From: an uncultured bacterium
GTDB lineage: Bacteria; UBP7; UBA6624
Reading direction: 5' to 3'
NCBI GenBank assembly: GCA_964343345.1
Contig: CAYFJE010000002.1
Span: 1-38,478, forward strand
Length of the DNA stretch: 38,478 nt
Below are positions 1 through 30,810 of the stretch, piece by piece (the stretch's first letter is position 1; every line of letters starts with the position of its first letter). Both the position numbers and the translations under genes were made by a program. The notes beneath the pieces are model-generated. The model was not told the origin of the DNA. It did no database searches and saw nothing but the letters and a program-made list of their open reading frames with translations.

Positions 1-932
1 CCGAGCCAACCCCCGAGCCAACACCCGAGCCAAGAAAAAACATCCAAGGCTCGCCTCAAAAGACCAAAGATATTAGGACAAGCCCTGCTGTTAGAAGGTA
101 TTCTCAAGAAAACGAAATCGACCTAACTTCAATCACCGGATCTGGACCAAACGGAAGAATCCAAATGAAAGACGTCTTGTCTTTTAAAAAGCCAAAAATA
201 TCTAAACTGGATACAAAATCTCCAAACAACACAGAAACAAGACAACCTATCAACAGTTCAATGGCTGCAATGGCAAAACATATGGTCAATTCAGTTTCAA
301 CGAGCCCACATTTTTTAATTGTTGACGAGGCTGATATGAGCGAAACTCTTGCTGTGTATAGAAATATGAAAGAAAAACTCAAAGAAAAGGGCGCAAGATT
401 GACCTTGATGAGTTTTTTTGTTAGAGCGGCAGCACAAGCACTCAAAGACTTTCCAAGGATGAACGTTTCTATTGACGGAGAAGAGTTAGTTACTAAAAAT
501 TACAGGAACATTGGGATGGCTGCAAGTGTGGGGGAAAGCTTAATTGTTCCAGTTATTAAAAATGCAGATTTTTTCAATCTTGAAAATCTTGCATTGGAGA
601 TTAACAGACTTGCCACTGCAGCACAAGAAAACAAATTGACAATGCAGGACATTACTGGAGGCACATTCACCATAACCAATGCTGGAATGTTTGGAGGACC
701 GCTGATGTCCGCACCGATAATCAACCAGCCAGAAGCGGGCATTTTAGGGATACACACAGTAAAAGAAAGAGCTGTTGTTGTAGACGGCAATGTCGTTGTT
801 AAACCAATGGTTTACATCTCTTTGTCAAGTGACCACAGGATGGTTGATGGTGTTCTTGCTGTAAGGTTTTTGTGCAGATTTAAAGAACTTCTTGAACACC
901 CAGGCCTTTTGGCTACAGGTCCAATTTCGTGA
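1..932 (+). CDS. 2-oxoacid dehydrogenase E2 component (dihydrolipoamide acyltransferase), 5'-partial; possibly SucB-type
   Basis: Frame +3 is open from the window edge (codons from nt 3). The translation gives an EPTPEPTPEP linker, then a peripheral-subunit-binding motif SPAVRRYSQENEIDLTSITGSGPNGRIQMKDV. The acyltransferase catalytic domain follows, with TFTITNAGMFGG, PIINQPEAGILGIH and the active-site DHRMVDG. It sits directly upstream of lpdA. Confidence 0.9.
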   Translation, partial: EPTPEPTPEPRKNIQGSPQKTKDIRTSPAVRRYSQENEIDLTSITGSGPNGRIQMKDVLSFKKPKISKLDTKSPNNTETRQPINSSMAAMAKHMVNSVSTSPHFLIVDEADMSETLAVYRNMKEKLKEKGARLTLMSFFVRAAAQALKDFPRMNVSIDGEELVTKNYRNIGMAASVGESLIVPVIKNADFFNLENLALEINRLATAAQENKLTMQDITGGTFTITNAGMFGGPLMSAPIINQPEAGILGIHTVKERAVVVDGNVVVKPMVYISLSSDHRMVDGVLAVRFLCRFKELLEHPGLLATGPIS

Positions 933-2305
933 AATACGACCTTGTTATTGTAGGAGCAGGTCCAGGCGGATATGTTTGTGCGATCAGGGCAGCTCAGCTT
1001 GGTTTGAAGGTTGCAGTTGTGGAAAAAGAAAGAGCAGGAGGAACTTGTTTAAATGTAGGGTGCATACCATCAAAAGCACTTTTAGATTCAACGGAGATAT
1101 TTTCAGAAGTTCAAGAAAACAACGAACACGGCATTGAAGCAAAAAATTTAAAAATAAATTGGAAAACCTTACAGCAAAGAAGGGAAGGGATAGTCGAAAA
1201 ACTAACCTCTGGTGTTGAATTTCTTCTTGCCAAATCAAAAATAGATTATTTCAAAGGCTGTGCCCAGGTCAAATCTCGTCACACCGTGATTGTGGGCAGA
1301 AACAACCTCGCAACAAAGAATGTTGTTTTGGCAACAGGTTCAACACCGATAGAGATACCCTTTTTACCTTTTGACGGATTACAAATAATCAATTCAACAG
1401 AAGCCCTTTCACAACCAAATATACCAAAAGAAATGGTTGTTATAGGTGGAGGGTATATTGGTTTGGAGATGGCAAGTGTTTATAACAGAGTAGGGACAAA
1501 AGTGACTGTAGTCGAAATGATGAACAGCATTGTCCCCTTGATGGACCCAGAGATCAGTAAACAGCTTAGGAAATCTTTAAAAAAGCAAGGCATCAAATTC
1601 AAAACATCAACCAAGGTAACAGGATCTAAAAAAACTAAAACCAAAATCATATTGAATGTTGAAAAAAACGGAAAAAAAGAGAAACAAACAACAGAACAAG
1701 TCCTTGTTGCTGTTGGAAGAAAGCCTAATGACGGCAACATTAATCTCAATGCTTTAGGGATAAAAAGAAACGAAAGGGGTTTTGTTGTTGTTGATGAAAA
1801 ACTGGAAACATCTCAAGAAGGGATTTATGCAATAGGAGATTTGGTTCCAGGACCAATGCTCGCACACAAAGCAAGTGAAGAAGGTGTTGTGGTTGCTGAA
1901 AGAGTTGCTGGTAAAAAAACAATACTTAATTACAGTTTGATACCATCAGTCGTTTACACACACCCAGAAGGTGCTTCTATTGGAAAAAACACACTTGAAC
2001 TCCAAAAAGCAGGCATAGAATTCAATACAGGTATGTTTCCATTTTCAGCATCCGGAAGAGCCATGGCTATCGGCTGTACAGAGGGATTTGTTAAGGTTTT
2101 GTCTGACAAAAAAACAGATACGGTTTTGGGAGTGCATATATTAGGGCCAAAAGCTTCCGAATTAATCGGAGAGGCCGCAATGGTCATGGGTTTCTGCGGA
2201 ACTGCTGAAGATGTTGGTGTTTTTATCCACGCTCATCCAACATTAAGCGAAGCTTTAAAAGAGGCCTCTCTTGAAGCTTCTGGACATGGAGCAATCCATA
2301 CTTAA
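929..2305 (+). CDS. lpdA: dihydrolipoyl dehydrogenase (E3)
   Basis: GTG start overlaps the E2 stop (GTGA). It has the FAD motif VIVGAGPGGY and the redox-active disulfide GGTCLNVGCIPSK. It also has the NAD motif VVIGGGYIGLE and the C-terminal HAHPTLSE interface motif. Confidence 0.95.
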   Translation: MKYDLVIVGAGPGGYVCAIRAAQLGLKVAVVEKERAGGTCLNVGCIPSKALLDSTEIFSEVQENNEHGIEAKNLKINWKTLQQRREGIVEKLTSGVEFLLAKSKIDYFKGCAQVKSRHTVIVGRNNLATKNVVLATGSTPIEIPFLPFDGLQIINSTEALSQPNIPKEMVVIGGGYIGLEMASVYNRVGTKVTVVEMMNSIVPLMDPEISKQLRKSLKKQGIKFKTSTKVTGSKKTKTKIILNVEKNGKKEKQTTEQVLVAVGRKPNDGNINLNALGIKRNERGFVVVDEKLETSQEGIYAIGDLVPGPMLAHKASEEGVVVAERVAGKKTILNYSLIPSVVYTHPEGASIGKNTLELQKAGIEFNTGMFPFSASGRAMAIGCTEGFVKVLSDKKTDTVLGVHILGPKASELIGEAAMVMGFCGTAEDVGVFIHAHPTLSEALKEASLEASGHGAIHT

Positions 2306-2312
2306 GGAGAAT

Positions 2313-2495
2313 ATGATGTTTAAATTAATTTTTGCTTTAGGACCGATGGAGATTGGTTTAATAGCACTAGTTGTCTTGGTGCTTTTTGGTCCAAAAAAGG
2401 TTACAGAATTTGCAAGATCGCTTGGAAGAACAAGTGGTGAATTCAAGAAAGGTCTTGAAGAGGGAAAAAAAAGCACAAAAGACAAAGACGAATAG
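2313..2495 (+). CDS. tatA: twin-arginine translocase subunit TatA/E
   Basis: I chose the ATG at 2313, preceded by AAGGAGA (2304-2310), rather than ORF-track start 2271, which lies inside lpdA. The product MMFKLIFALGPMEIGLIALVVLVLFGPKKVTEFARSLG has the TatA pattern: one TM helix, an FGxKK hinge and an amphipathic helix. Confidence 0.85.
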   Translation: MMFKLIFALGPMEIGLIALVVLVLFGPKKVTEFARSLGRTSGEFKKGLEEGKKSTKDKDE

Positions 2496-2504
2496 TTAAA
2501 AAAA

Positions 2505-3215
2505 ATGGAAGACAAAAAAATGTCTTTGTCCGAACATGTTTCAGATTTACAAAAAACAATTTTAAGAAGTTTAGTTTTCTGGATATCAGCTTCTGCCTTT
2601 CTTTCTTTTTTCCATGAATTCCTTTTAAAACACTTACAAGAACCATTAAAACAAGTAGGAATAGATTCACTAGTTGTTTTATCCCCGCAAGAAGGCTTTC
2701 TTATCCCCATCAAATTAGTTTTAATGTGCGGTTTTATAGTTGCCTCACCGTTAATTGTTCGTGAAATTGCTCTTTTTGCATGGCCTGCTCTAAAAAAAAC
2801 AGAAAGAAAGACTTTTCAAATTTTTGTGATTCCAGCTTTTCTAATCGCAATCCTAGGCGCTTTTTTTTGCTGGGAAGTTCTAATTCCTGTTTCTGTTGGT
2901 TTTCTTTTCAAAACAACAACTTCAAATCAATTAGATCCAACATGGACACTTCAACACTGGTTCAATTTTATCCAGTCAATGATGCTTGCTGCAGTTGTTG
3001 CATTTCAACTTCCAATAGTAATGGGAATTCTTGCAAAATTAAGGTTAATAACTTCCAAAATAGTTAAAAAAAACGGTCCTTATGCAATTGTTTTTCTTTT
3101 AATAATTTCAGGTTTTATCACTCCACCAGATGTTGTTACCCAGGTTATTATTGCCATACCCTTGATAGCTCTTTTTTACCTCAGTGTTTTCATAGTGAAA
3201 ATAAACGAAGGCTAA
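2505..3215 (+). CDS. tatC: twin-arginine translocase subunit TatC
   Basis: The N-terminus MSLSEHVSDLQKTILRSL matches the TatC HxxELRxR-type start. The protein is polytopic with about six hydrophobic segments and sits next to tatA. The start could be the internal ATG at 2520. Confidence 0.9.
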   Translation: MEDKKMSLSEHVSDLQKTILRSLVFWISASAFLSFFHEFLLKHLQEPLKQVGIDSLVVLSPQEGFLIPIKLVLMCGFIVASPLIVREIALFAWPALKKTERKTFQIFVIPAFLIAILGAFFCWEVLIPVSVGFLFKTTTSNQLDPTWTLQHWFNFIQSMMLAAVVAFQLPIVMGILAKLRLITSKIVKKNGPYAIVFLLIISGFITPPDVVTQVIIAIPLIALFYLSVFIVKINEG

Positions 3216-3286
3216 AAAGGTAAAGAATGACATCTTTTCAATAGAATTAAAAGGTTTTAGATTTCAAAAAAAACGGAGGAAGAATT

Positions 3287-5611
3287 ATGGCAAGAATTGG
3301 TGTTTTTCTTAGCGAAGAGGGTAAAAGCCTACACCCATTAGACCTAAAGGCAATTTCTGACAAGCTCATTAAGAACGTTCAGGAAGTAAGTAACGTGTTT
3401 ATACACGAGGACCTTAATACCATAGAAGGCCTAGAGGCGATGGAGAGGCAGATAAAGGAACAAAACATCGGTTATGTTGTTATTGGTTGCGGATCTGTCG
3501 ACAAAAGAGAGGAGACCATTAGGACAACACTTAAAAAAGCAGGAATAAACGAATATCTTTTAGAGGTCGTGAATTTAAAAGAAATGGTTGCAAGCGTTCA
3601 TAACGATGAGCCTGAAAAAGCTAACGAGAAAGCGTTCCACCTAATACAAACAGCTGTAATGAAAGCCGAAAAAGGTAAACCGCTCAACGAAACACCAATG
3701 AGGGTAGAACAACAGGTTTTAGTTGTTGGCGGAGGTGTTGCAGGAATGTCCGCCTCTTTAAGAATTGCCGACGCCGGATACAGTGTTGTTTTGGTAGAAA
3801 AGGCACCTGCTCTTGGAGGGCGTGTTGCACTTTTGAAAAACCTTTGGCCAAAATTGGAAGAGGCGGAGGACTTGATGAGAAACCTTTCTATAAGGTGCCA
3901 CCAACACGAAAATATTGTTTTGTATGACTACTCCGAAGTTAAATCAGTTTCAGGAGTTAGAGGGGATTTTGATATTGAGATTTCAAAAAAACCCAGGTAT
4001 GTTGACAGCCAAAAAATAGATAATTTTGAAAAAATAACAGCAGAACTAACACAAGATTTTCCAAACAAGTACGGACCAAGCAATTCTTCAGCAAAAGTTT
4101 TATATCAACCATATCCAGGATGTGTTCCGCCGTTGTTTTTGATTGATCCAGAGCACATAAATCATCCAGAGGTAAAAAAATTAATCACACTTGTTCCAGA
4201 CGGAACTGTTGACACGTCAGAAAAAGAAAAAATTGTTCATGAAAAGGTCGGAGCAATCATTATGGCTTTCGGAGCACAGATGATGGATGTTTCAAAACTC
4301 ACAAACCTGACCTCAGCAAAAAACAAAAATGTTGTTACAGCCATGCATTTTGAATCAAACACACAGGCGGAAGAGGATTCCGAAGCCGTTCTCTGGGTTG
4401 TAGATGCTGGAAGCAATGATCCAAAAAGAGGGGTTCCTTATGCTTCAGAAGTTCCACTCATGACATCTGTCAAACAGGCTATCTCTGTTAAAAAATCTTC
4501 AAAAGACAAAACAAGAACAGTGGTAATCTATTCAGACAGACGATCAAGAACAAAAGGGTATGAAGAGTTTTTAAAAACTGCTGAACAAAAATACAAAATC
4601 GAGATGATTAGAGGGGCGGTTTCAAAAGTAACATCTCAAACGAATGGTCTTTCTGTAAGTTTTCACAATTTAATCCAAGGAGAAGAGCAGCAGATTTCAG
4701 CATCAAAAGTTGTTTTGGCTACAGAAATATCTCCATCTCCAGATACAAAAAATCTTGCAGAAATTATGGATATAGGTTGCGATAATTCAGGATTCCTCTC
4801 AGAGACCCACGCTTCCCTAGACCCTTGCTCAACGAGCAATTCCGGAGTTTTTGTTTGCGGTGACTGTGCATCTCCTGGAGATATTCGCGCTGCTGTTTTG
4901 ACAGCTGAGTCAGCGGTTGCTAAAGCTTTGGCAGTTCTTGGTAAAAAAACAGGAGAGCCATATAGGCTTAAGCAAAAAGATGATAAATTAGCTAGATTCG
5001 ATAATTCTGCACAAACCGTTTCCCCTGAAAGTTTTCAAAAAAACGAAGAAGGAGGAATGAGTTACACACGACTAAATACCGTTTTTGGAAAAACAGAAAG
5101 TGGAGCATCGGTTCCAGCATCTCCGACAAGAAATATCGAATTGCATGGGTGGGAGTTGGCGAAATCAATTGCTGAAATTGAAAACATATGGAGCAATCAA
5201 GTGGAAAATTCTTCTTGGGAGCCAAAAATAACAGGGTTTGCTTCTCAACATGGGGGCTATCCACTTTTGGAGACACTCGGAAGGGAGGAAATCTCATATT
5301 CCCCGTGCTATAGGTTTTTACGTATAAGATCAACAGCTCATCTAGACCCCCTTCTCGTCTTGAAAAGTTTTTTCAATGGAGCCGACGGAGTCTTTATTGT
5401 TGGGGGGCCCTTAGGAAGGGGAAAATTCCATACTGACAATTATCTTGCGAAAAGAAGGTTTAAAGCTCTTGAAGGAGTTTTGGATGCTGGAGGTATAGAG
5501 TCAGAAAGAGTGAAGATTCTTTTTATGGACTCTCACCAGGTTGACGAGGTAGCGCAACATTTGAAAGATTTTCACAACACACTTTCAGACTTGGGGCCAT
5601 TGGGTATTTGA
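3287..5611 (+). CDS. HdrA-like FAD flavoprotein fused to a C-terminal MvhD/FlpD-like domain, lacking the canonical Fe-S ligand cysteines
   Basis: GGAGGA RBS lies upstream. The Rossmann FAD motif VLVVGGGVAGMSASLRIADAGYSVVLVEKAPALGGR is at about nt 3728. The HdrA-like C-terminal FAD segment GVFVCGDCASPGDIRAAVLTAESAVAKA is present. Residues about 646-772 follow the MvhD pattern (GADGVFIVGG, ERVKILFMDS). Family-conserved Cys positions are substituted (see findings). Confidence 0.7.
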   Translation: MARIGVFLSEEGKSLHPLDLKAISDKLIKNVQEVSNVFIHEDLNTIEGLEAMERQIKEQNIGYVVIGCGSVDKREETIRTTLKKAGINEYLLEVVNLKEMVASVHNDEPEKANEKAFHLIQTAVMKAEKGKPLNETPMRVEQQVLVVGGGVAGMSASLRIADAGYSVVLVEKAPALGGRVALLKNLWPKLEEAEDLMRNLSIRCHQHENIVLYDYSEVKSVSGVRGDFDIEISKKPRYVDSQKIDNFEKITAELTQDFPNKYGPSNSSAKVLYQPYPGCVPPLFLIDPEHINHPEVKKLITLVPDGTVDTSEKEKIVHEKVGAIIMAFGAQMMDVSKLTNLTSAKNKNVVTAMHFESNTQAEEDSEAVLWVVDAGSNDPKRGVPYASEVPLMTSVKQAISVKKSSKDKTRTVVIYSDRRSRTKGYEEFLKTAEQKYKIEMIRGAVSKVTSQTNGLSVSFHNLIQGEEQQISASKVVLATEISPSPDTKNLAEIMDIGCDNSGFLSETHASLDPCSTSNSGVFVCGDCASPGDIRAAVLTAESAVAKALAVLGKKTGEPYRLKQKDDKLARFDNSAQTVSPESFQKNEEGGMSYTRLNTVFGKTESGASVPASPTRNIELHGWELAKSIAEIENIWSNQVENSSWEPKITGFASQHGGYPLLETLGREEISYSPCYRFLRIRSTAHLDPLLVLKSFFNGADGVFIVGGPLGRGKFHTDNYLAKRRFKALEGVLDAGGIESERVKILFMDSHQVDEVAQHLKDFHNTLSDLGPLGI

Positions 5612-5614
5612 TAA

Positions 5615-6508
5615 ATGAATGAAATGAGAATAACAATACAAAGAGAAGCCAGAAGGCTTTTGCAACTCGAACGAGTGAGTGTTGTTATAGGTTATGAAAC
5701 AGGGCCGTATCCAGGAACGACATCTCCTTGTTTTGCTTTTACCCCAGATGATGCTCAAAGAATAGTTTTTAATAGTTTTTCAGCAATGAATTTAGCTGTT
5801 TATTTGCCAGGAATTACTGGAAATGTTGGAATAGTGGCAACTCCAGCAACTGTAAGATCTATCAAAGAGCTCGAAAAAGACGGCCTTGTAAAGAGACAAA
5901 ATATTCATATTATTGGCGTTAGGTTTCCAGGGATACTAGATCCAAGAAAGCTTTCCGTGAATCGAGAGAACGAAAACACACTTTCTGTAAATGAACACCC
6001 CGAGGCTCTTTGGGATTGGGCCCTACATGACCTTTACGAGGTTCCATCTGAATACGATATCCTTGTTGAGCCAAGATGGATGAGCGAGTTGGACAAGCAA
6101 AAGAAATTGCAGAAGCCGATTTTGTCTCGTACTAATGTTGAACGACTTCAACAAATGACACATAAAGAAAGAAGGGCTTATTGGTTGCAATATTTTGAAG
6201 AAAACAAACACCCTGACCACAACAAAAACCTTTTTCCTTCAACATATGCTGGAGGAGACCATTTGGAGAAATTCAAATACATAAAGTCAACTTACAGTTC
6301 TAGTGAGTTGTTTTATGAACATCTTTCTTGGGTTTACCAATCTATGGGCCGTGCATCTGGTTTTGATTTGTCCGACTTGACCGAAGAGCCAACAAAGATA
6401 CCCCTCTCCACCCTTAGAGCATGGGCTGCAAGAGAGTTTAGGAGAAACTTTGATTACAGGCCGGGTTTTGACGACACAAACCCCTTATTGAAGAAGGAAA
6501 GTTTATGA
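5615..6508 (+). CDS. uncharacterised operon protein; N-terminal half weakly FrhB/FdhB-like (F420 hydrogenase/dehydrogenase beta family), Cys-depleted
   Basis: It starts 3 nt after the upstream stop, and its end overlaps the next gene (ATGA). NVGIVATPATVRSIKELEK resembles the FrhB-type VAVVGTPCQIxAxRKL segment with Cys replaced by Ala. The whole 297-aa protein has only one Cys. I do not recognise the C-terminal half. Confidence 0.35.
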   Translation: MNEMRITIQREARRLLQLERVSVVIGYETGPYPGTTSPCFAFTPDDAQRIVFNSFSAMNLAVYLPGITGNVGIVATPATVRSIKELEKDGLVKRQNIHIIGVRFPGILDPRKLSVNRENENTLSVNEHPEALWDWALHDLYEVPSEYDILVEPRWMSELDKQKKLQKPILSRTNVERLQQMTHKERRAYWLQYFEENKHPDHNKNLFPSTYAGGDHLEKFKYIKSTYSSSELFYEHLSWVYQSMGRASGFDLSDLTEEPTKIPLSTLRAWAAREFRRNFDYRPGFDDTNPLLKKESL

Positions 6509-7533
6509 CAATGAATAATTATGTTTTGTCAAAAGCCAAACTCAAATATTGGCTTGAGGATATAAGAAGGCGTAATGAGCTTTGGGCTCCCGTTGGAGAG
6601 AGAGATTCAGTGAGTTATTTAAAGAATCCAAAAGGCGAAGATGTAGCAACAGAATTCACAAATAGTTTAGATTGTCCTAAATACATCTTTTCTCCACAGC
6701 AAGATCCAATTTGTAATTTTGAAATCAAGGGAAGAGGAGAGGTTGTTGTGGAGGAAATTAAACCCGATACAACACCAAGAGTTGTTTTTGGACTTAGGCC
6801 ACCAGATGTTAGAGGTCTTGAAATCATGGACGCATATCTTCTAAAAGACAAGGTTGATGAAAGATACAAGGCAAAAAGAGACAATACGACAGTAGTTTCT
6901 TTAGGCTATCACAATCCCGCACCGTGTTGTTTTGCTGAGGCTGTTGGTGTCGATTTGTTTCCAAAAAAAGGTTCGGATATTCTTTTAACAGATCTTGGAA
7001 GAAGCTACTATGTTGAAACTCTTTCTGAAGAAGGAGAAAATCTTGTTTCCGAACACTTCAACGAAGCAGACGACATTGTTCGAAACGAAGCATGGGATAT
7101 CCAAAAAAGATCGAAAGGAACAACAGACTTCGATTTACATTTAGACAAATGGAAAGATTTTACAGACAGTGAAATATACACATTGCCTTATTGGGACGAG
7201 ATATATTTAGGGGTAATAGCTGACTCTGTAGCTACACGTTATTTTTATTCTGGAACATATTTTAAAATTGTTGATGTGTCTAAAGGTACTCGTGGTACAA
7301 GATATAAAACATGGACAACAATGTATTCACCCAACTTTTCTGTCTTGCCCAACGGGTATGATTACAAACCAAGCTTAAAAGAAAAATTCAAGGATTGGAT
7401 ATTAGAAATGTTTCACTTTTTTCCAAAACGACACGGCTTTATTGGGTGTTCCGGAGCACATAGATGTATTGCTGGAATGACAACAAAACATGACATCAGA
7501 AAAATAATTGCAAACGTGGATTTTGGGACATGA
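6505..7533 (+). CDS. AsrA/HydB-like (anaerobic sulfite reductase subunit A / sulfhydrogenase beta family) protein without ferredoxin Cys motifs
   Basis: Collinear similarity to AsrA as I remember it. [21 protein letters not shown] matches [29 protein letters not shown] matches [39 protein letters not shown] matches [45 protein letters not shown] matches MCVGCGRCDDRCP. It has 4-nt overlaps with both neighbours. Confidence 0.65.
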   Translation: [342 protein letters not shown]

Positions 7534-8315
7534 ACCTCCAACCTCAAGTTGTAAATCTAACTGAAAGTACCAAAGAAGGTGCTATTGGTTCCGTTTCTTT
7601 TTCTTGCTCAAAGGAATTATCTGCAGGTCAGGTTTTTAAAATCGGAACTTTTGGCATTGGTGAGACATCTGCATGGGTAACGGATTGGGAAGAGGGAATA
7701 GCAACCGTATCATTTTTAGAAAACAATTCAGTCACACACAAAATCATGCTTTTGCCAAAAGGAGAATGTATAACTTTGAGAGGACCTTTCGGAAACGGAT
7801 TCCCATTTGCCAAAAAAAACTACAAAAAGATTCTCTTGATAAACAAAGATGATGGCATTTTGTCGCAGAAAAAACTCATAAATGACCTTATTCAAACAGG
7901 TTCAGACATCACACTTTTTCACTTCACATCTTCTCCAAAAAATCCAGTCATGAAGAGCTCTTTAGAAAAAACATGTAACAACGAAGAGTCTCCTGTTGAT
8001 GGTCAAATTTTTGACTTGACCAAAAAAGGACCCCAAGACCTGAATTCTTTTATTAGCAAACAGCTAGAACAACATAATTTTTCGGCCGTTGATGCCGTTG
8101 CCATTTCAGGAGATGAAAATTTTCAGCAAGCTATATCTAAAACCCTAGAACAAACAAACATTAAAGACAAAGATATATACATTCTTTTTAATCGCAACTT
8201 CACATCAGGCATGGGTTGGTCAAACCAGGACTTATACGGAGTAACTAACATCTGGAAAGATGGGCCGGTATTCACTCTTTCGGAGGTTCGAAGGTTCCCG
8301 GGAATTTTTATTTAG
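7530..8315 (+). CDS. AsrB/HydG-like FNR-fold protein lacking the NAD(P)H loop and the [2Fe-2S] cysteines
   Basis: AGQVFKIGTFGIGETSAWV...ITLRGPFGNGFPF matches the AsrB/PyrK-type GQFVxVxxPxxGExPxS...LRGxxGNGF pattern. LLINKDDGILS replaces LLVVAGGTGVAP. NFTSGMGWSNQDLYGVTNIWKDGPVF replaces [25 protein letters not shown]. Confidence 0.65.
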   Translation: MNLQPQVVNLTESTKEGAIGSVSFSCSKELSAGQVFKIGTFGIGETSAWVTDWEEGIATVSFLENNSVTHKIMLLPKGECITLRGPFGNGFPFAKKNYKKILLINKDDGILSQKKLINDLIQTGSDITLFHFTSSPKNPVMKSSLEKTCNNEESPVDGQIFDLTKKGPQDLNSFISKQLEQHNFSAVDAVAISGDENFQQAISKTLEQTNIKDKDIYILFNRNFTSGMGWSNQDLYGVTNIWKDGPVFTLSEVRRFPGIFI

Positions 8316-9018
8316 ATTTTAAATTTTTGACTAAAAACAACCCAAGGTCCGAGTCTAAATCTTCAGCCCTGAAACCTTCGGGGATTTTTTTAATTGCAGA
8401 TTCTGAAACTATATTTTTTAGTAAGTTTTTTACCTTTTTTCTTCGTTGGGAAAACATGATTTTGTTTAACATCAAGTAATTTTCAGCATGTTTAAAATCC
8501 TCCTTTTTCCCTTTGTTTAACAGGGTTAAAACAGCACTTTCTACCTTTGGTCGAGGAAAAAAACATTCTGATGACAATATTTTTTGAATTTTGCATGAGT
8601 AAAAATGCTGCAGGGGTCCTGAAAGAGCACCAAATGATTTTGTGCCAGAATTCGAACAAACTCGTTCAGCCACCTCTTTTTGAACGGTAAAAACAGCATG
8701 ATTTATTTTCTGAGGCCATTGTGCAACAGTCCACAGAATCCTTCCTGAAAGATAGTAGGGAAGGTTGCCGACAAGAGATCCTGAAGATGTCTCGTTTTCT
8801 GGGTTCCACGAGCGGATGTCTTTTTTTACAACCTCTTTTCCAAACCTTTGAGCAAGAAGAGAGTGAAGTGTTTCATCGATTTCAAACACACTAAACTCCT
8901 TCCTTTTTTTGATTAGCTCGGTCAAAAAACCCAAACCACCACCTATTTCAATTGTCCAGTTTGAAAGATGCTTATCAAGAAGGTTTTTTATGTAAATCAA
9001 TTCAGAACCCTTTATCAT
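8308..9018 (-). CDS. rsmA: 16S rRNA (adenine1518/1519-N6)-dimethyltransferase RsmA/KsgA
   Basis: SAM motif EIGGGLGFLT, catalytic GNLPYY, FFPRPKVESAV and a C-terminal helical domain are present. The coordinates use the first ATG. The conserved KKxxGQNF motif is encoded upstream (9019-9054), so the real start is probably a non-canonical codon between 9052 and 9105. Confidence 0.9.
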   Translation of the reverse strand: MIKGSELIYIKNLLDKHLSNWTIEIGGGLGFLTELIKKRKEFSVFEIDETLHSLLAQRFGKEVVKKDIRSWNPENETSSGSLVGNLPYYLSGRILWTVAQWPQKINHAVFTVQKEVAERVCSNSGTKSFGALSGPLQHFYSCKIQKILSSECFFPRPKVESAVLTLLNKGKKEDFKHAENYLMLNKIMFSQRRKKVKNLLKNIVSESAIKKIPEGFRAEDLDSDLGLFLVKNLKSK

Positions 9019-9105
9019 GAAGTTTTGACCACGATGTTTCTTTGGAGGGTTTATTGCAAAATATTTAGAAGCCCTCCACCTTAAAGACTCTGGGTTTTTT
9101 CTGAT

Positions 9106-9324
9106 CTAAACTTCCTCGTAAAAAACTAAGGCCCCTGAAACAAACATTGTTGTCTTTATCCCATCTTCCTCTTTTGATGTATCCATTGTTACACCTGAAG
9201 AATACTTGATATCCAAGATTTTAATTTTGCCCTTCTGCTCATCTATCCAGGCATTTATCTCTCTGTCTAAAGGCGGAGTTCGGTAGTTTCCAAGACTAGA
9301 TTCCATGAAATGCTTTACTTTCAT
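9106..9324 (-). CDS. small hypothetical protein (pattern reminiscent of Cse60-type small proteins)
   Basis: 72-aa ORF directly abutting rsmA. The MKVKHF...REINAWIDEQ...ILDIKYS...MFVSGALVFYE pattern resembles Bacillus Cse60-like proteins from memory. This is a weak call. Confidence 0.3.
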   Translation of the reverse strand: MKVKHFMESSLGNYRTPPLDREINAWIDEQKGKIKILDIKYSSGVTMDTSKEEDGIKTTMFVSGALVFYEEV

Positions 9325-9357
9325 AGGTAAATCTTAATTCGAAAAATCAAACAAACC

Positions 9358-9375
9358 TAATCCAATTTTGGATTA
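9358..9375. promoter_or_regulatory. 18-bp inverted repeat in a divergent intergenic region (candidate operator)
   Basis: TAATCCAA-TT-TTGGATTA has perfect 8-bp arms with a 2-bp spacer. It lies in the 96-nt gap between the divergently transcribed 9106-9324 (-) and 9421-10356 (+) genes. Confidence 0.3.
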
Positions 9376-9420
9376 AAACTAAAAATAATGTACCATTGTT
9401 GGATATAAAATTAAAAAAGA

Positions 9421-10356
9421 ATGAAAGTAAATTTATTCAAACAAAACGAAAAGGGAAAGAATAAACTTCTAAGTTTACTCTTGTGCGGAAGTCTTTTTTT
9501 CTCGAAAGGGATTGCTGCCGAGGAGCCTTCTAGTGAAGAACTTTTCGTTAAGACTTTTCTTGTGGAAGGAGTGGTGCTTCCAGAGGGAACTTTGACACTT
9601 CCCAAGATAAAGATTGACTACACGGCAACAAAACATGTTGAAATTGCAAAAAACCTGTTAGGGGAAAATATAGAATCTGAAACACCTAGCGGTTTAACAA
9701 GGGTTATAGATCAAAATTTCCAAAAATATACAACTTCAGAAGGCAAAGAGCTTTTAGTTTTTCAGCATGGTGGCATTCAATTTAAGAACCCTTTTCAAAA
9801 TATAAACGAGATGTATCCAACAACAAGGCCAGAGGCCGAAAAGGTTTTAGAAATCTTCATTGACAACTTCGGGCACTTTCCGCTAGATGCAACCCTAGTC
9901 AGCACTTCAGACATAAAGCATCCAGAGTACCAATCTTTCAACAACAGCCGAGGCTTGCCATTGGGGTACACATATGAGTACGGCAGGTATTTTAAAGATA
10001 TACCTATAAAAAACGATTTCGTTCAAGCAGTCATCATTGGGGGAAGGGTTTTTCAATTTTCTTTTTCCTGGGGACTTTTACCAGAAGAGATAAAAGACAC
10101 AGAGGAAGAAATTATTCCAGCATGGTTGGCCGTGAAGGATGCAATAGAGTATGCTTATAAGAATTTTTTTGCTGGAAAATATTATGCTGACGTTTATGTC
10201 ACCAAGGTTCAATTGATTTATACTTTCAACGGCATGGAAGAGGCTTGGAAAAAAGATGAACCAAAGACACTTGTCCCTGCCTGGACTGTACAGATAAACA
10301 ATAAACATGACATCACAATCGAAGCTTTTTCTAGCCAAATAATACCGATTTATTAG
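9421..10356 (+). CDS. hypothetical exported protein
   Basis: 311-aa ORF with an N-terminal signal-like segment KLLSLLLCGSLFFSKGIAAEE. I recognised no family. Confidence 0.45.
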   Translation: MKVNLFKQNEKGKNKLLSLLLCGSLFFSKGIAAEEPSSEELFVKTFLVEGVVLPEGTLTLPKIKIDYTATKHVEIAKNLLGENIESETPSGLTRVIDQNFQKYTTSEGKELLVFQHGGIQFKNPFQNINEMYPTTRPEAEKVLEIFIDNFGHFPLDATLVSTSDIKHPEYQSFNNSRGLPLGYTYEYGRYFKDIPIKNDFVQAVIIGGRVFQFSFSWGLLPEEIKDTEEEIIPAWLAVKDAIEYAYKNFFAGKYYADVYVTKVQLIYTFNGMEEAWKKDEPKTLVPAWTVQINNKHDITIEAFSSQIIPIY

Positions 10357-10414
10357 TAAAACAATCAAAAACTATAAAAAATTTCTCATTGCTTTAGACA
10401 GCTTCAAAGGGACC

Positions 10415-11539
10415 TTGAGTTCAGCAGAAGCAGGAAGAATTGTTGCAAGAGCAGTCCATGAATATTCTCCGAAATCAAAAACAACTATAAAAAATTTCGC
10501 TGATGGTGGAGAAGGCACTGTTCAAGCTATTCTGGAAAATTATGAATACACCGAACACAAGGTTGAAACAGTTGGAGCCAATGGCATACCTATAGTTGCT
10601 AGTTGGTTTTTTCTAAAAGAAGAACAAATAGCATTATTTGAAATGGCATCAGTTGTCGGGCTTCCCCTCCTCACGGTTGAAGATTTGAATCCTGAGAAAA
10701 CAAGTACATTGGGAATTGCGCCAATCATTCTTGACATTTTAAATAAAAAAGTCAAAAAAGTATGGCTCGCTGCTGGAGGGACCTCAACCCTTGATGCAGG
10801 GCTCGGGCTTCTTAAAGGGATGGGAGTTCGTTTTAAAAACAAGGAATATCCTAAAAATTTAATCGAAATTAAAGGTTCTGAAGTTTTGGATTTTTCTAAA
10901 GTAGAAACAAGCAATAAAAACCTCCAACCTTACCCAGAAAAAGGCAATTGCCTGTTCCCAAGCGTGATTTTTGATATAATTGCTGATGTTCATGCTCCCT
11001 TGCTTGGTAGCAAAGGGGCTGTTTTTGCTTTTGGCAAACAAAAAGGAGCCACCCCAAAAAATACAGCTCTTCTAGAGAGGGGGATGGTTAATTTTTCCAA
11101 TGTCATTCAGGGAAAAACAAAAGATCCATCCTTTTTAAAATTGGGCGGATTGGGAGCAGCAGGAGGGATTGCCTTAGGGCTTTCTTTGTTGTTTAAAGTG
11201 AATATAAAAAAAGGAGCTGATTTTATTGTGGCAAAAACTGGAATAAACAAAACGATAGACAATTGTGACATCCTGATAACAGGAGAAGGGCAATTCAACT
11301 CTCAAAGCAAGCAGGGAAAAGGGCCTTGGGTTCTTGCATCTTTAGCAAAAGAAAGAAATATCCCAGCTTTGATTATTAGCGGGTTAAAGATGAGGAAAGA
11401 GGATAAGGTAGGGGATTTTCATTTTTTGGAAACCTCGAACTCTTCTCCAAAAAGCAAAACAGAAGCAAAGGAAAATCTTTTCAACGCAACAACAAAATGG
11501 CTTAAAGAAAACGAGGTGAATAATAATGAAACAAAATAA
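10415..11539 (+). CDS. glycerate kinase
   Basis: GGEGT motif (FADGGEGTVQAI) and C-terminal ILITGEGQFNSQSKQGKGPWVLASLAKERNIPALIISG are present. The coordinate is the ORF-track TTG. The family N-terminus KKFLIALDSFKGTL is encoded upstream in the same frame (10376-10417), so the true start lies between 10343 and 10390 at a non-ATG/GTG/TTG codon. Confidence 0.88.
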   Translation: MSSAEAGRIVARAVHEYSPKSKTTIKNFADGGEGTVQAILENYEYTEHKVETVGANGIPIVASWFFLKEEQIALFEMASVVGLPLLTVEDLNPEKTSTLGIAPIILDILNKKVKKVWLAAGGTSTLDAGLGLLKGMGVRFKNKEYPKNLIEIKGSEVLDFSKVETSNKNLQPYPEKGNCLFPSVIFDIIADVHAPLLGSKGAVFAFGKQKGATPKNTALLERGMVNFSNVIQGKTKDPSFLKLGGLGAAGGIALGLSLLFKVNIKKGADFIVAKTGINKTIDNCDILITGEGQFNSQSKQGKGPWVLASLAKERNIPALIISGLKMRKEDKVGDFHFLETSNSSPKSKTEAKENLFNATTKWLKENEVNNNETK

Positions 11540-14429: not shown

Positions 14430-14924
14430 TTTAAACCAAGGAAATATTGGACCAGGGTCAATCTTTCTTTCGGGAGCTATGTCGGAGTGACCCACGACAT
14501 TCAGGCACTTCGGGTGCTGTTTTTGTATCCAAGAGATTAGTTTAGTAAGGGTTTGAATTTGTTGTTCAGGCCAGTTCGCCCATTTTTTGTCTAGGTGTTT
14601 CGTGTAGCCGCTTTTCCATTTTTTTCCATCTTTCAAAAAACCTGGATTAACTAGTTCGACACCAATTGAAAAATCATTCACATTCCTCCTGTCTTTAAAG
14701 CACGATTTGCCAGCATGCCATGCTTTATAACTAGTATCGACTAACTGAATCACTTTTCCAAATGGGGATATAACAAAATGAGCTGATAGTTTCCTTTTTT
14801 CAAGAACCAACAATGCTTCCTTTGCTGTGAATGTTTCAGTGTAGTGAATTACTATAAGATCAGGATCTATTATCGTTCTTGCATAATTTCTTGTTTTTTT
14901 GAATTTTGAAAATGGGCAAATCAT
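14400..14924 (-). CDS. N-acetylmuramoyl-L-alanine amidase, amidase_2 (AmpD-like) family
   Basis: IVIHYTE, AWHAGKS, NDFSIGVELVN and VVGHSDIAPERKIDPGPIFPW match the AmpD/PGRP zinc amidase motif order. Confidence 0.85.
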   Translation of the reverse strand: MICPFSKFKKTRNYARTIIDPDLIVIHYTETFTAKEALLVLEKRKLSAHFVISPFGKVIQLVDTSYKAWHAGKSCFKDRRNVNDFSIGVELVNPGFLKDGKKWKSGYTKHLDKKWANWPEQQIQTLTKLISWIQKQHPKCLNVVGHSDIAPERKIDPGPIFPWFKLKNIRPCND

Positions 14925-14976
14925 TTTGTTTGTTAATTTTAACTATTTCATCTTAATAAAAAATACAATAACATTC

Positions 14977-21815: not shown

Positions 21816-23006
21816 TTAGTTTAACACCTTATTTCCTTCAACGAAAAGCATCTTAAGCCGGTTGTTTGACGAAAAAAAATCATCTAAGTCGTTTTTCCAT
21901 ACCCCGATATCAGCAATAGAGCCTTCTTCAATTTTCCCAGTTTTTTTCAGGCCAAGTGCTTTTGCTGGACTGGATGTTATTGCTTTCAATATTTCCTTGT
22001 TTGACATTTTCAAATCTCGTGAAGCCAGCTTCCCAACTTCTAACAGAGACGTGCAAAAAGAAGATCCCGCATTGAAGTCTGTTGCCAAAAATAACTCAAC
22101 ACCAGCATCAAGCAACTTTCTGGCATTTGGCTGTACCCCTGTGTCAAGTTCAATGTTGCAAATAGGCAATATTCCAACAGCGACTCCACTTTCAGCTAAT
22201 TTTTTTTCATCCCCTTCTTTGAGGTGTTCAGCATGATCGATTGAAACAGCTCCATATTTTAAAGCAATTTCAGCACCGCCCATTTCAGAGAATTGTCCAG
22301 CATGCAAAGTGATTTGATAATCTAGCGAACATGCATGAGAAAGGAGAAATTCAGTTTGTTTTTTAGAAAATGCCCCATCTTCCAAAAAAACATCAAAACG
22401 ACTTGCAAGGTTTTCTTTTTTTGCCATTTTTGCTGCTGTGACTATTTCCTCTAGATAAGTTTCTTCATCTTTGTTTTCAGGAAAAGCATGAGCCATCAAC
22501 AATGTTGTGACTACTCGAACTTTTTTCTCAGAAGCCCATTCCTTATAGATTCTTAAATGATGCAATTCTTCTTCAAGAGAAAGGCCGTAACCAGTTTTTA
22601 CTTCGATCGTTGTCGTCCCGGCAGATTGCATTTTTGAGAACCTTTCATCCATAAGGGACTTCAATTCTTCAGTCGTTGATTTTTTTGTTTCGGAAACGGT
22701 ATGTTTTATGCCTCCTCCAGCTTTCAAAATCTCAACATACGAAGCTCCTTTTTTTCTTAACTCCCCCTCAAAGCTTCGATCACCAGAATGAAGGAGGTGA
22801 GTGTGTGCATCAATAAAGCCAGGAGTAATAAAAGACCTCCCACAATCAATAATTTTTACTTGAGTCTTTTTTCTCAAAAAGGAATCAACCTCCTTTCCGT
22901 TTAGGAGACTTTTAACAACACCATTTTTTACACAAATGAAATTAGGGCCTTTTACAACTTTAAAACCATTCCACATATTTCCATTTGTTTTGATTAAATA
23001 ATCCAT
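21816..23006 (-). CDS. hutI: imidazolonepropionase
   Basis: ITPGFIDAHTHLLHSGDR, YVEILKAGGGIKHTV and the amidohydrolase metal-ligand pattern (HAGQ..., IDHAEH, ATDFN) are present. Confidence 0.9.
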   Translation of the reverse strand: MDYLIKTNGNMWNGFKVVKGPNFICVKNGVVKSLLNGKEVDSFLRKKTQVKIIDCGRSFITPGFIDAHTHLLHSGDRSFEGELRKKGASYVEILKAGGGIKHTVSETKKSTTEELKSLMDERFSKMQSAGTTTIEVKTGYGLSLEEELHHLRIYKEWASEKKVRVVTTLLMAHAFPENKDEETYLEEIVTAAKMAKKENLASRFDVFLEDGAFSKKQTEFLLSHACSLDYQITLHAGQFSEMGGAEIALKYGAVSIDHAEHLKEGDEKKLAESGVAVGILPICNIELDTGVQPNARKLLDAGVELFLATDFNAGSSFCTSLLEVGKLASRDLKMSNKEILKAITSSPAKALGLKKTGKIEEGSIADIGVWKNDLDDFFSSNNRLKMLFVEGNKVLN

Positions 23007-23050
23007 AAAAGCACCATAAAAACTACTCTATACTATACAATTTTTGTTCA

Positions 23051-28858: not shown

Positions 28859-28880
28859 CAGCAACTTACAATTCAGAAGA

Positions 28881-30803: not shown

Positions 30804-30810
30804 TTAGTAT

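What the first reader, a model, noticed from the sequence alone, without database searches (positions are those of the whole stretch)
3287..8315. Intact, translationally coupled Hdr/Mvh/Frh/Asr-like operon in which the Fe-S ligand positions are systematically substituted
Four consecutive plus-strand genes are joined by a 3-nt gap and two ATGA overlaps. Their products align collinearly to subunits that normally form Fe-S-rich electron-transfer or bifurcating modules: HdrA plus MvhD, FrhB-type, AsrA/HydB (FlxBC-type) and AsrB/HydG (FlxA-type).

Reading the translations, I find no CxxCxxCxxxC(P) ferredoxin motif in any of the four proteins. The MvhD and AsrB [2Fe-2S] cysteines are replaced. The AsrB GGxGxxP NAD(P)H loop is replaced. 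The only cofactor motif clearly retained is the HdrA-type FAD GxGxxG.

The ORFs are long (774, 297, 342 and 261 aa), uninterrupted and tightly coupled. That argues for a maintained function rather than decay. Possible explanations are a flavin-only or pseudoenzyme derivative of a Flx-Hdr-type complex, for example iron-sparing remodelling, a scaffold, or a new activity. I know of no characterised Cys-free version of this module.
Basis: partly seen in the sequence, partly recalled or inferred. Interest (0 to 1): 0.85.

Follow-up and report, generated by a model that had tools for sequence, protein, structure and literature searches.

The report
Iron-sulfur-stripped Flx-HdrA operon, still conserved
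An uncultured marine bacterium keeps, under strong selection, a four-gene relative of an anaerobic electron-bifurcating enzyme (HdrA plus FlxDCBA) that has lost almost every iron-sulfur and NADH-binding residue, so the complex must now do something other than its ancestral job.

Summary
Window 3287-8315 holds four intact, coupled genes: an HdrA::MvhD/FlxD fusion, then FlxC-like (FrhB-type), FlxB-like (AsrA/HydB-type) and FlxA-like (AsrB/PyrK-type) genes. This is the gene order of canonical hdrCBA-flxDCBA clusters, but hdrB and hdrC are absent.

Of 66 cysteine columns conserved in canonical homologues, 63 are replaced. The NAD(P)H and FAD motifs of the FlxA-like subunit are also gone. The HdrA FAD pocket is kept, including the equivalents of E356 and K409.

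This is not decay. The operon is intact in at least 12 assemblies and 5 GTDB species, with genome GC from 37 to 70%. Its dN/dS is 0.02-0.09, which matches or beats the neighbouring lpd, tatC and ksgA.

I add three points.
- The FlxB-like protein keeps three canonical cysteines, plus new invariant Cys and His residues, so one small metal site is possible.
- Partly depleted relatives exist, which suggests stepwise cluster loss.
- All depleted forms sit directly downstream of tatC, whereas none of 84 canonical loci does.

The function is unknown. My best guess is a repurposed flavoprotein complex that has lost its electron wire. I found no description of it in the literature.

The parts
2313..2495 (+). 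tatA (small ORF; possible starts at 2286 or 2313), upstream context
   Evidence: ORF translation has a TatA-like N-terminal helix. Orthologous positions in L003, L006, L008 and L009 are called PF02416 TatA_B_E.
2505..3215 (+). tatC, immediately upstream of the operon. Linked to it in all clade and intermediate loci where the upstream flank was recovered.
   Evidence: PF00902 at orthologous positions. The gap to P1 is 71 nt here. It is -4 nt in L003 and L006, +1 in L103 and -8 in L106 and L107. There are 0 TatC hits in 84 canonical hdr-flx loci.
3273..3277 (+). Shine-Dalgarno-like GGAGG a few nt before the P1 ATG. No terminator-like site lies between tatC and P1.
   Evidence: Sequence read; promoter and terminator scan.
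3287..5611 (+). P1: HdrA-like flavoprotein fused to an MvhD/FlxD-like domain (residues ~641-774). The FAD pocket is kept; all 26+5 ligand Cys columns are replaced.
   Evidence: NCBIfam HdrA2 E 3.5e-122 but 409 bits against a cutoff of 1100; PF02662 82 bits. 5odc_A and 5odc_D matches. AF2 pLDDT 84, Foldseek 5odc_A TM 0.80. Cys tables. E356 and K396 (equivalent to K409) retained.
5615..6508 (+). P2: FlxC-like (FrhB/FdhB C-terminal-type domain plus a former 2x[4Fe-4S] region). 15 of 15 ligand Cys are replaced. It is the most conserved subunit.
   Evidence: Relatives with PF04432 plus Fer4; hhalign 99.9%; Foldseek 8rvu_E, 7bkb_E and 4ci0_C; Cys table; 56-62% identity to L006 and L003.
6505..7533 (+). 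P3: FlxB-like (AsrA/HydB/ShyB-type). 12 of 15 ligand Cys are replaced. Invariant motifs GYHNPxPCCFAE and [16 protein letters not shown] are kept.
   Evidence: NCBIfam ShyB 1.5e-18; PF17179 29.8 bits; 9nez_B 1.4e-15; Cys table and motif alignment.
7530..8315 (+). P4: FlxA-like (AsrB/PyrK/HydG-type). It lacks the [2Fe-2S] Cys, the GGxGxxP, YGAR and CGPPxM NAD(P)H motifs and the FAD loop. It is the least conserved subunit.
   Evidence: NCBIfam AsrB 4.1e-14; 9nez_C; motif table; Cys table.
8367..8383 (+). Terminator-like hairpin plus T-run about 50 nt after the P4 stop, inside the convergent ksgA.
   Evidence: Consensus scan only. The number of such sites does not exceed the shuffled expectation.

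Best explanation
Shown: the four genes are the end-member of a tatC-linked branch of the hdrA-flxDCBA gene cluster that lacks hdrBC. The canonical cluster encodes an NADH dehydrogenase / heterodisulfide-reductase-type flavin-based electron-bifurcating system of anaerobes. In the window's clade 63 of 66 conserved ligand cysteines are gone. The NAD(P)H and FAD motifs of the FlxA-like entry subunit are gone as well.

Inferred from solved Hdr complexes: electrons in those complexes reach and leave the HdrA flavin only through chains of Fe-S clusters. This assembly therefore cannot carry electrons from NADH to the HdrA flavin, nor onward to ferredoxin or HdrBC.

Shown to be kept under strong purifying selection:
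- the protein architecture as a whole;
- an HdrA core with a complete FAD-binding signature, including the two residues reported to mark bifurcating HdrA;
- the MvhD-like docking domain;
- the FrhB-like P2;
- two invariant Cys/His motifs in P3.

Inferred: it is still made as a soluble multi-subunit complex. Its chemistry is local to the HdrA FAD, and possibly to one small Cys/His metal site in P3. P2 to P4 act largely as remodelled structural partners. This would resemble the cofactor-less FhcB and ElpA subunits of other former redox complexes. Its activity differs from NADH-driven bifurcation, and its substrate is unknown.
For: Homology and collinearity of all four proteins.

Canonical gene order hdrCBA-flxDCBA in relatives (PMC12125255).

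Column-by-column Cys loss. Loss of the GGxGxxP, YGAR and CGPPxM motifs and the FAD loop in P4.

FAD pocket kept:
- GGGxxG, E171, GG177-178 and D532 are retained, as are 98 of 218 highly conserved non-Cys HdrA columns.
- E356 and K409 equivalents are retained (their significance is taken from PMC12054007).

Within P1, the FAD parts and the MvhD-like domain are the most conserved (60-63%). The former inserted ferredoxin domain is the least conserved (29-36%).

Selection and conservation:
- dN/dS is 0.02-0.09, against lpd 0.05-0.06, tatC 0.09-0.10 and ksgA 0.11-0.16.
- Identity to distant clade members is equal to or above housekeeping neighbours.
- The operon is intact in every assembly, across genome GC of 37-70%.
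- 32 of 63 former ligand columns are invariant within the clade.

The loss is specific to this operon: LipA of the same lineage keeps both of its cluster motifs.

In known complexes electrons reach the HdrA FAD only through Fe-S chains, over gaps of 20-25 A (PMC12350162).
Against: There is no biochemical, expression or structural evidence for complex formation, flavin content or activity.

FAD binding is inferred from motifs only. The P3 Cys/His site could not be tested in three dimensions. A purely non-catalytic role would explain the same sequence data. Translational coupling and conservation do not prove that the four proteins still assemble.

dS is saturated (above 1.2), so the dN/dS values are approximate.
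Confidence: 0.55

Rival explanations
1. It is a non-catalytic pseudoenzyme complex. All redox function is lost, the FAD (if still bound) is only structural, and the complex is kept for a scaffolding, regulatory or chaperone-like role. That role may be connected with the Tat export genes to which it is always coupled.
For: tatC lies immediately upstream, with gaps from -8 to +71 nt, in every clade and intermediate locus where the upstream flank was recovered. This holds even though TatC is only 28% identical between them and the other neighbours differ. No TatC is found in 84 canonical loci. The most conserved parts include the cofactor-less MvhD-like domain and P2. The entry subunit P4 has lost every cofactor motif.
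Against: The FAD pocket is retained in detail, including residues thought to tune flavin reactivity. That is more than a structural flavin would seem to need. P1 to P4 show no Tat signal or membrane segment. The adjacency could be inherited operon structure without any functional link.
Confidence: 0.27
2. It is an iron-sparing or oxygen-tolerant remodelling that preserves the ancestral NADH-dependent bifurcating activity. Other cofactors or non-cysteine ligands would take the place of the Fe-S clusters.
For: The lineage is pelagic marine (Tara Oceans and other ocean assemblies), where iron is scarce. Some former ligand positions are now Ser, Asp, Glu or His.
Against: At most cluster sites all four ligands are replaced, often by Ile, Leu, Val, Phe, Gly, Ala or Pro. 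The NADH site itself and hdrBC are gone. No new flavin-binding or other cofactor domains were detected. The same organisms still make Fe-S enzymes.
Confidence: 0.04
3. The genes are decaying pseudogenes or relaxed relics that happen still to be open.
For: Massive loss of catalytic residues. P4 is the fastest-evolving of the four.
Against: No stop or frameshift occurs in any of more than 12 assemblies spanning 51-100% identity and GC of 37-70%. dN/dS is 0.02-0.09. P2 and P3 are more conserved than lpd. Half of the substituted positions are invariant.
Confidence: 0.01

Closest known systems
FlxABCD-HdrABC (hdrCBA-flxDCBA) NADH dehydrogenase / heterodisulfide reductase of Desulfovibrio and other anaerobes
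   Same: Same protein families in the same order: hdrA, flxD (MvhD-like), flxC (FrhB_C plus Fer4), flxB (Fer4_22/AsrA-like), flxA (PyrK/AsrB-like). All four are collinear full-length homologues.
   Different: No hdrB or hdrC at the locus. HdrA and FlxD are fused. 63 of 66 ligand Cys and the NAD(P)H/FAD motifs of FlxA are lost. The operon is tatC-linked. The host looks like a marine heterotroph with a PDH complex rather than an anaerobe.
HdrA2 (HdrA-MvhD fusion) of Methanosarcina, and HdrA of HdrABC-MvhAGD, Fdh-Hdr and Elp-Hdr complexes (PDB 5ODC, 7BKB, 8RVU)
   Same: Same domain order and fold (TM 0.80 to 5odc_A). FAD motifs and the E356/K409 equivalents are kept. The best NCBIfam model is HdrA2.
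   Different: None of the six [4Fe-4S] sites, nor the MvhD [2Fe-2S] site, has its ligands. The score of 409 bits is far below the family cutoff of 1100.
sHdrA (HdrA-like flavoprotein of sulfur oxidisers, PDB 6TJR)
   Same: A reduced HdrA-type flavoprotein from non-methanogens. It is a structural match (Foldseek E 3e-24).
   Different: sHdrA is a minimal protein of about 340 aa that keeps one [4Fe-4S] cluster and works with HdrBC-like subunits. P1 keeps all domains but no cluster ligands.
Cofactor-less subunits retained in former redox complexes: FhcB of the formyltransferase/hydrolase complex, and ElpA of Elp-Hdr
   Same: Homologues of redox subunits that lost their cofactor ligands yet remain as structural parts of a complex (PMC12054007, PMC12350162).
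   Different: In those cases a single subunit is cofactor-less within an otherwise active redox or hydrolase complex. Here the entire electron wire, across four proteins, is gone.
Partly depleted tatC-hdrA'-flxDCBA'-miaA operons (P0050 and P0171 lineage; L103, L106, L108)
   Same: tatC linkage and no hdrBC. The same three HdrA cluster sites are lost (N-terminal, C192/C195, FAD-proximal). They group with the clade in NJ trees at 99-100%.
   Different: They still have 12-14 Cys in HdrA', 12 of 15 in FlxC, both ferredoxin motifs in FlxB and the [2Fe-2S] motif in FlxA. They are only about 31-34% identical to the clade.

Membership tests
HdrA (electron-bifurcating heterodisulfide reductase subunit A) | Thioredoxin-reductase-like FAD domain with GxGxxG and the associated FAD motifs | tested here: met
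   GGGVAG 148-153, E171, GG177-178 and D532 are present; 98 of 218 highly conserved non-Cys columns are kept. Fold TM 0.80 to 5odc_A.
HdrA (electron-bifurcating heterodisulfide reductase subunit A) | Cysteine ligands for the [4Fe-4S] clusters (N-terminal, inserted and C-terminal ferredoxin domains, FAD-proximal) | tested here: not met
   0 of 26 conserved Cys columns retained in the window protein.
HdrA (electron-bifurcating heterodisulfide reductase subunit A) | Residues E356 and K409 (M. thermolithotrophicus numbering), reported to distinguish bifurcating HdrA | tested here: met
   E356 and K396 align to them and are invariant in the clade. Their significance is taken from PMC12054007.
HdrA (electron-bifurcating heterodisulfide reductase subunit A) | Curated family score (NCBIfam HdrA2, HdrA) | tested here: not met
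   409, 275 and 260 bits against cutoffs of 1100, 1300 and 1400.
HdrA (electron-bifurcating heterodisulfide reductase subunit A) | Partner subunits HdrB (CCG domains) and HdrC | tested here: not met
   No HdrB or HdrC in the 38-kb window or in any clade or intermediate locus. They are found in 29 (HdrB) and 40 (HdrC) of the 84 canonical loci. The rest of these genomes was not searchable.
MvhD / FlxD (PF02662 FlpD) | Pfam gathering score | tested here: met
   82 bits against a cutoff of 22.3, covering residues 648-770; 5odc_D E 2e-20.
MvhD / FlxD (PF02662 FlpD) | [2Fe-2S] cysteine ligands | tested here: not met
   5 of 5 invariant Cys columns are Ser or Gly.
FlxC-type (FrhB_FdhB_C plus 2x[4Fe-4S]) | Full-length homology to the family | tested here: met
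   phmmer E 1e-20 to members; hhalign 99.9%, E 1.4e-36, 277 columns; Foldseek FdhB, ElpB and FrhB. The direct PF04432 hit is absent.
FlxC-type (FrhB_FdhB_C plus 2x[4Fe-4S]) | Fe-S cysteine ligands | tested here: not met
   0 of 15 retained.
FlxB / AsrA / HydB-ShyB type | Homology and the Fer4_22 domain | tested here: met
   PF17179 29.8 bits against a cutoff of 27. ShyB 1.5e-18, which is below the equivalog cutoff. 9nez_B 1.4e-15.
FlxB / AsrA / HydB-ShyB type | Fe-S cysteine ligands | tested here: not met
   3 of 15 retained (C142, C315, C321). No site keeps four ligands.
FlxA / AsrB / PyrK / HydG type | Homology | tested here: met
   AsrB 4.1e-14 and PyrK 6.1e-14, both below curated cutoffs; 9nez_C 4.7e-08.
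FlxA / AsrB / PyrK / HydG type | NAD(P)H motifs (GGxGxxP, YGAR, CGPPxM), FAD loop and [2Fe-2S] Cys | tested here: not met
   The GG of GGxGxxP is K/D, YGAR is HFTS, and CGPPxM is SGDENF. The FAD loop is deleted. 0 of 5 Cys are kept. 22 of 76 conserved columns are kept.
FlxABCD-HdrABC system | NADH-dependent electron transfer or bifurcation to ferredoxin and a disulfide acceptor | not testable with these tools
   Requires biochemistry. The sequence features needed for it are absent, as shown in the rows above.

The most novel reading that the evidence does not exclude
A whole electron-bifurcating module (HdrA-FlxDCBA) was stripped of its Fe-S wire step by step and recruited to a new, essential, non-bifurcating function in pelagic bacteria. 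That function is either an oxygen-compatible flavoenzyme acting at the preserved HdrA flavin, or a cytoplasmic partner of the Tat export machinery with which it has stayed translationally coupled. The residual Cys/His motifs of the FlxB-like subunit would form a new metal or redox-active site.
Probability: 0.3. Interest if true: 0.85.

Novelty: new variant of a known kind. Interest (0 to 1): 0.75.

Why it matters
HdrA-type complexes are the textbook case of flavin-based electron bifurcation. They are thought to depend absolutely on chains of Fe-S clusters.

Here a complete four-protein set has lost that chain, has lost its NADH entry site and its HdrBC exit, and is still conserved as tightly as pyruvate dehydrogenase genes. 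It would be a natural experiment on what else the HdrA flavin scaffold can do, and on how anaerobic redox machinery is recycled when a lineage moves into oxic, iron-poor water.

The partly depleted relatives give an ordered series of cluster losses that could be reconstructed and tested. The unexpected tatC linkage gives a concrete lead to the function.

The case also warns that annotations such as 'hydrogenase iron-sulfur subunit' or 'heterodisulfide reductase' on these genes would mislead metabolic reconstructions of marine MAGs.

Tried and rejected
Taxonomy of the host:
- Record titles say only 'bacterium' or 'uncultured bacterium'.
- Nearest Lpd homologues outside the clade are 50-53% identical and come from many phyla, so they are uninformative.
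- A paper search for the MAG name found nothing.
- The phylum therefore remains unknown.

P3 cluster ligands: I looked for the published P. furiosus sulfhydrogenase I structure (9NEZ), to decide whether C142 and C315/C321 could share a site.

P2 identification: direct Pfam, NCBIfam and PDB sequence searches with P2 gave nothing significant. It was resolved only through homologues, profile comparison and fold.

Considered and rejected:
- Selenocysteine or recoding. The substitutions are ordinary sense codons of many kinds and there is no in-frame TGA.
- Organism-wide loss of Fe-S proteins or of cysteine. LipA keeps its motifs, and the Cys content of P1 to P4 (0.3-1.75%) is at the window background of 0.88%.
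- Assembly artefact. The same operon appears in many independent assemblies.
- Secreted or membrane proteins. There is no hydrophobic segment or signal.

A correction to an earlier reading: the exhaustive search first suggested there were no intermediates. Cys counting of its hits showed partly depleted relatives.

The promoter and terminator scan gave no more sites than shuffled sequence.

Four literature searches for cysteine-less Hdr or Flx proteins found no description.

Full report

Yes. The + strand of the window carries four consecutive ORFs: 3287-5611 (774 aa, P1), 5615-6508 (297 aa, P2), 6505-7533 (342 aa, P3) and 7530-8315 (261 aa, P4). They are joined by a 3-nt gap and two ATGA overlaps. 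A GGAGG lies a few nt before the first ATG.

- P1 matches the NCBIfam HdrA2 model from end to end (residues 3-772 against 1-774 of 777, E 3.5e-122). It also matches Pfam FlpD at its C-terminus (82 bits), HdrA of PDB 5ODC (E 1.9e-74) and MvhD of 5ODC (E 2e-20).
- P3 matches sulfhydrogenase beta and AsrA models (E 1e-18) and PDB 9nez_B. P4 matches AsrB, PyrK and HydG models (E 4e-14) and 9nez_C.
- P2 has no direct family hit. It does have full-length relatives at 26-30% identity (E down to 1e-20) that carry PF04432 (FrhB_FdhB_C) plus ferredoxin domains. A profile-profile comparison gives 99.9% probability over 277 columns. An AlphaFold model (pLDDT 79) finds ElpB, FdhB and FrhB as best structural matches.
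- The P1 model (pLDDT 84, pTM 0.80) superposes on HdrA 5odc_A with a TM-score of 0.80.

**2. What is the ancestral system?**

The canonical relatives of P2 sit in clusters with this order: hdrC, hdrB, hdrA, mvhD/flxD, a FrhB_C plus Fer4 protein (about 315 aa), a Fer4_22 protein (about 340 aa), and a FAD_binding_6/NAD_binding_1/DHODB_Fe-S protein (about 285 aa). This is the hdrCBA-flxDCBA arrangement described for the NADH-dependent Flx-Hdr complex of sulfate reducers and Bilophila (PMC12125255, PMC10920352). A scan of species-representative genomes returned 80 such loci from Armatimonadota, Dehalococcoidia, Bacillota and others. With the two loci, 63 of 82 carry all four of flxD, flxC, flxB and flxA in order. 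The window operon is therefore hdrA::flxD, flxC, flxB, flxA, with hdrB and hdrC missing.

**3. The ligand table.**

I aligned the window clade with 22-80 canonical sequences per protein and listed every column that is cysteine in at least 70-80% of canonical members.

- HdrA part: 26 columns, none retained. Replacements include S9, E11, N44, G69, E192, D195, a hydrophobic set in the former inserted ferredoxin domain, D373/A386/P390/L391 at the FAD-proximal site, and A/D/A/S plus K/S/S/S in the C-terminal ferredoxin domain.
- FlxD domain: 5 of 5 replaced by Ser or Gly.
- P2: 15 of 15 replaced.
- P4: 5 of 5 replaced.
- P3: 12 of 15 replaced, with C142, C315 and C321 retained.

In total 63 of 66 columns are replaced. 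Canonical proteins carry 28-37 Cys (HdrA-MvhD fusions) and medians of 16, 17 and 7 Cys for the other three. The window proteins carry 8, 1, 6 and 3. That equals the background Cys content of the other window ORFs, 0.88%.

In P4 the GG of GGxGxxP is K/D, YGAR is HFTS, CGPPxM is SGDENF and the FAD loop is deleted.

In contrast, the HdrA FAD signature is intact. GGGVAG, E171, GG177-178 and D532 are present, and 98 of 218 highly conserved non-Cys columns are kept. The two residues reported to mark bifurcating HdrA, E356 and K409, are retained as E356 and K396 (PMC12054007).

**4. Maintained or decaying?**

The same operon, in the same neighbourhood, occurs in many independent assemblies. The neighbourhood is dnaA, 3HCDH, aconitase-like, lipB, lipA, pdh E1ab, E2, lpd, tatA, tatC, the operon, and convergent ksgA. 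The assemblies include five GTDB species representatives (CAZDPU01, CAZFBE01, CAXGSM01, PBAU01, JACNFQ01) and Tara Oceans contigs. P1 identity ranges from 100% down to 51%, and locus GC from 37% to 70%.

No copy has a stop or frameshift. Between the window and the most distant members, P1 to P4 are 51-52%, 56-62%, 54-55% and 37% identical. The comparable figures are 52-53% for Lpd, 35-39% for TatC and 41-42% for KsgA.

Nei-Gojobori dN/dS is 0.04-0.08 (P1), 0.02-0.04 (P2), 0.02-0.05 (P3) and 0.08-0.09 (P4). It is 0.05-0.06 for lpd, 0.09-0.10 for tatC and 0.11-0.16 for ksgA. dS is saturated (above 1.2), so these ratios are approximate.

Half of the substituted ligand columns (32 of 63) are invariant across the clade. 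The loss is therefore old and the new residues are themselves constrained. LipA of the same lineage keeps its CxxxCxxC and Cx4Cx5C motifs, so the loss is specific to this operon. Pseudogenisation is excluded.

**5.

(a) P3 is not stripped bare. Two invariant motifs, GYHNPxPCCFAE and [16 protein letters not shown], hold four Cys (C141, C142, C315, C321) and three His. All are conserved from the 37% GC genomes to the 70% GC genomes. A small Cys/His metal or redox-active site is possible. I could not test its geometry.

(b) The former cluster regions of P2 are remodelled into invariant polar motifs (FPSTYxGGxHL and WVYQ..GR.SGFD) rather than degenerating.

(c) The exhaustive search of 1.84 billion representatives shows the clade is isolated. 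Only two representatives are close, and the next hit drops to 32% identity. Counting Cys in those hits, however, revealed partly depleted HdrA homologues.
- P0050 and P0171 (12-14 Cys) lack the N-terminal, C192/C195 and FAD-proximal ligands, just like the window clade. They keep the C-terminal ferredoxin clusters and one inserted cluster.
- Their operons read tatC, hdrA', flxD, flxC, flxB, flxA', miaA, again without hdrBC.
- Their subunits retain 3 of 5 (FlxD), 12 of 15 (FlxC), 8 of 15 (FlxB) and 4 of 5 (FlxA) ligand Cys.
- In neighbour-joining trees they group with the clade in 99-100 of 100 bootstraps, even after removal of the Cys columns. Raw distances to canonical HdrA are no larger, though, so long-branch attraction is not excluded.

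(d) tatC lies directly upstream in every clade and intermediate locus where the upstream flank was recovered, with gaps from -8 to +71 nt. TatC is only 28% identical between the two groups, and the other neighbours differ. None of 84 canonical loci (876 kb) contains a TatC.

**6. How it most likely works.**

In solved Mvh-, Fdh- and Elp-Hdr complexes, electrons reach the bifurcating FAD only through chains of Fe-S clusters. These run through the FrhB-type subunit, the HdrA N-terminal domain and the MvhD [2Fe-2S] cluster. Electrons leave through the C-terminal and inserted ferredoxin domains. The remaining gaps of 20-25 A are bridged by arm movements (PMC12350162).

With every one of these stations removed, the NADH site gone and HdrBC absent, the ancestral reaction is impossible. 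That conclusion is an inference from sequence plus established structural knowledge.

What selection preserves is the fold and the likely interfaces, the FAD pocket and the P3 motifs. Within P1, the MvhD-like domain and the FAD parts are the most conserved, and P2 is the most conserved subunit overall. I therefore favour a soluble complex that is still assembled. Its chemistry would be local to the HdrA flavin, and perhaps to a P3 metal or thiol site, with an unknown substrate (confidence about 0.55). No membrane segments or signals are present.

The main rival is a fully non-catalytic complex, possibly Tat-associated (about 0.27). Iron-sparing preservation of the old activity, non-cysteine cluster ligation and gene decay are all unlikely.

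**7. Comparison with what is known, and novelty.**

By homology and gene order this is a derivative of Flx-Hdr. By every cofactor criterion except the HdrA flavin it fails membership of the functional families (see the membership table).

Single cofactor-less subunits are known, such as FhcB and ElpA (PMC12054007, PMC12350162). So are minimal HdrA-like flavoproteins, such as sHdrA (6TJR). In the held literature I found no description of an entire Hdr/Flx module without its Fe-S clusters. Public annotation calls P1 a 'hydrogenase iron-sulfur subunit' and P2 'hypothetical'.

I classify it as a new variant of a known kind, with real potential for a new function.

**8. Limits.**

- The host phylum is unknown.
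- The window context suggests an ordinary heterotroph: PDH complex, histidine utilisation, Pst transport and peptidases. Aerobic metabolism was not demonstrated.
- Complex formation, flavin content, expression and activity are all untested.

Noticed in passing
L103 9262-15212; L106 9090-14930; L107; L108 4217-10201: A second, partly cysteine-depleted lineage carries tatC-hdrA'-flxD-flxC-flxB-flxA'-miaA without hdrBC. It looks like an evolutionary intermediate between canonical Flx-Hdr and the window's fully stripped operon.
   Followed up: partly
window 2505-3287, and the equivalent junctions in L003, L006, L008, L009, L103, L106 and L107: tatC is always directly upstream of the depleted hdrA'. 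The two genes overlap by 4-8 nt in several genomes. tatC is never found next to canonical hdr-flx clusters (0 of 84 loci).
   Followed up: partly
L105 1-4705: A third Cys-poor form: a 702-aa HdrA'-FlpD fusion with only 8 Cys (only the C-terminal ferredoxin is kept). It lies next to NfnA/NfnB-like genes, a FlxC-like gene and msrA.
   Followed up: no
window 1-14924 compared with L003, L006, L008 and L009: About 20 kb of gene order near dnaA is conserved among genomes whose GC ranges from 38% to 70%. The order is lipB-lipA-pdhABC-lpd-tatAC-operon-ksgA-hyp-glycerate kinase-hyp967-amidase. That is an unusually wide compositional spread for such strict synteny.
   Followed up: partly
window 11526-14429: A 967-aa ORF with no Pfam match. 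It is conserved at the same position in the clade (73% identity to L001, 37% to L003).
   Followed up: no
window 28839-29810: An unusual fusion of two PhoU domains with a C-terminal OmpR-type winged-helix DNA-binding domain (Trans_reg_C). It lies just upstream of a pstSCAB-like phosphate transporter cluster (29916-34083).
   Followed up: no
window 14899-17391: An amino-acid permease fused to two universal stress protein (Usp) domains (830 aa). It is conserved in L003 and L009.
   Followed up: no
window 21816-26286 (- strand): Histidine-utilisation genes (a urocanase and an imidazolonepropionase-like amidohydrolase), together with M32 and M24 peptidases. This suggests a peptide- and amino-acid-degrading heterotroph.
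   Followed up: no
L008 495-1346 and 6460-7693: In this assembly the 3HCDH and E2 genes are each split into two called genes, while the depleted operon next to them is intact. The cause is probably assembly or sequencing errors, or local decay.
   Followed up: no
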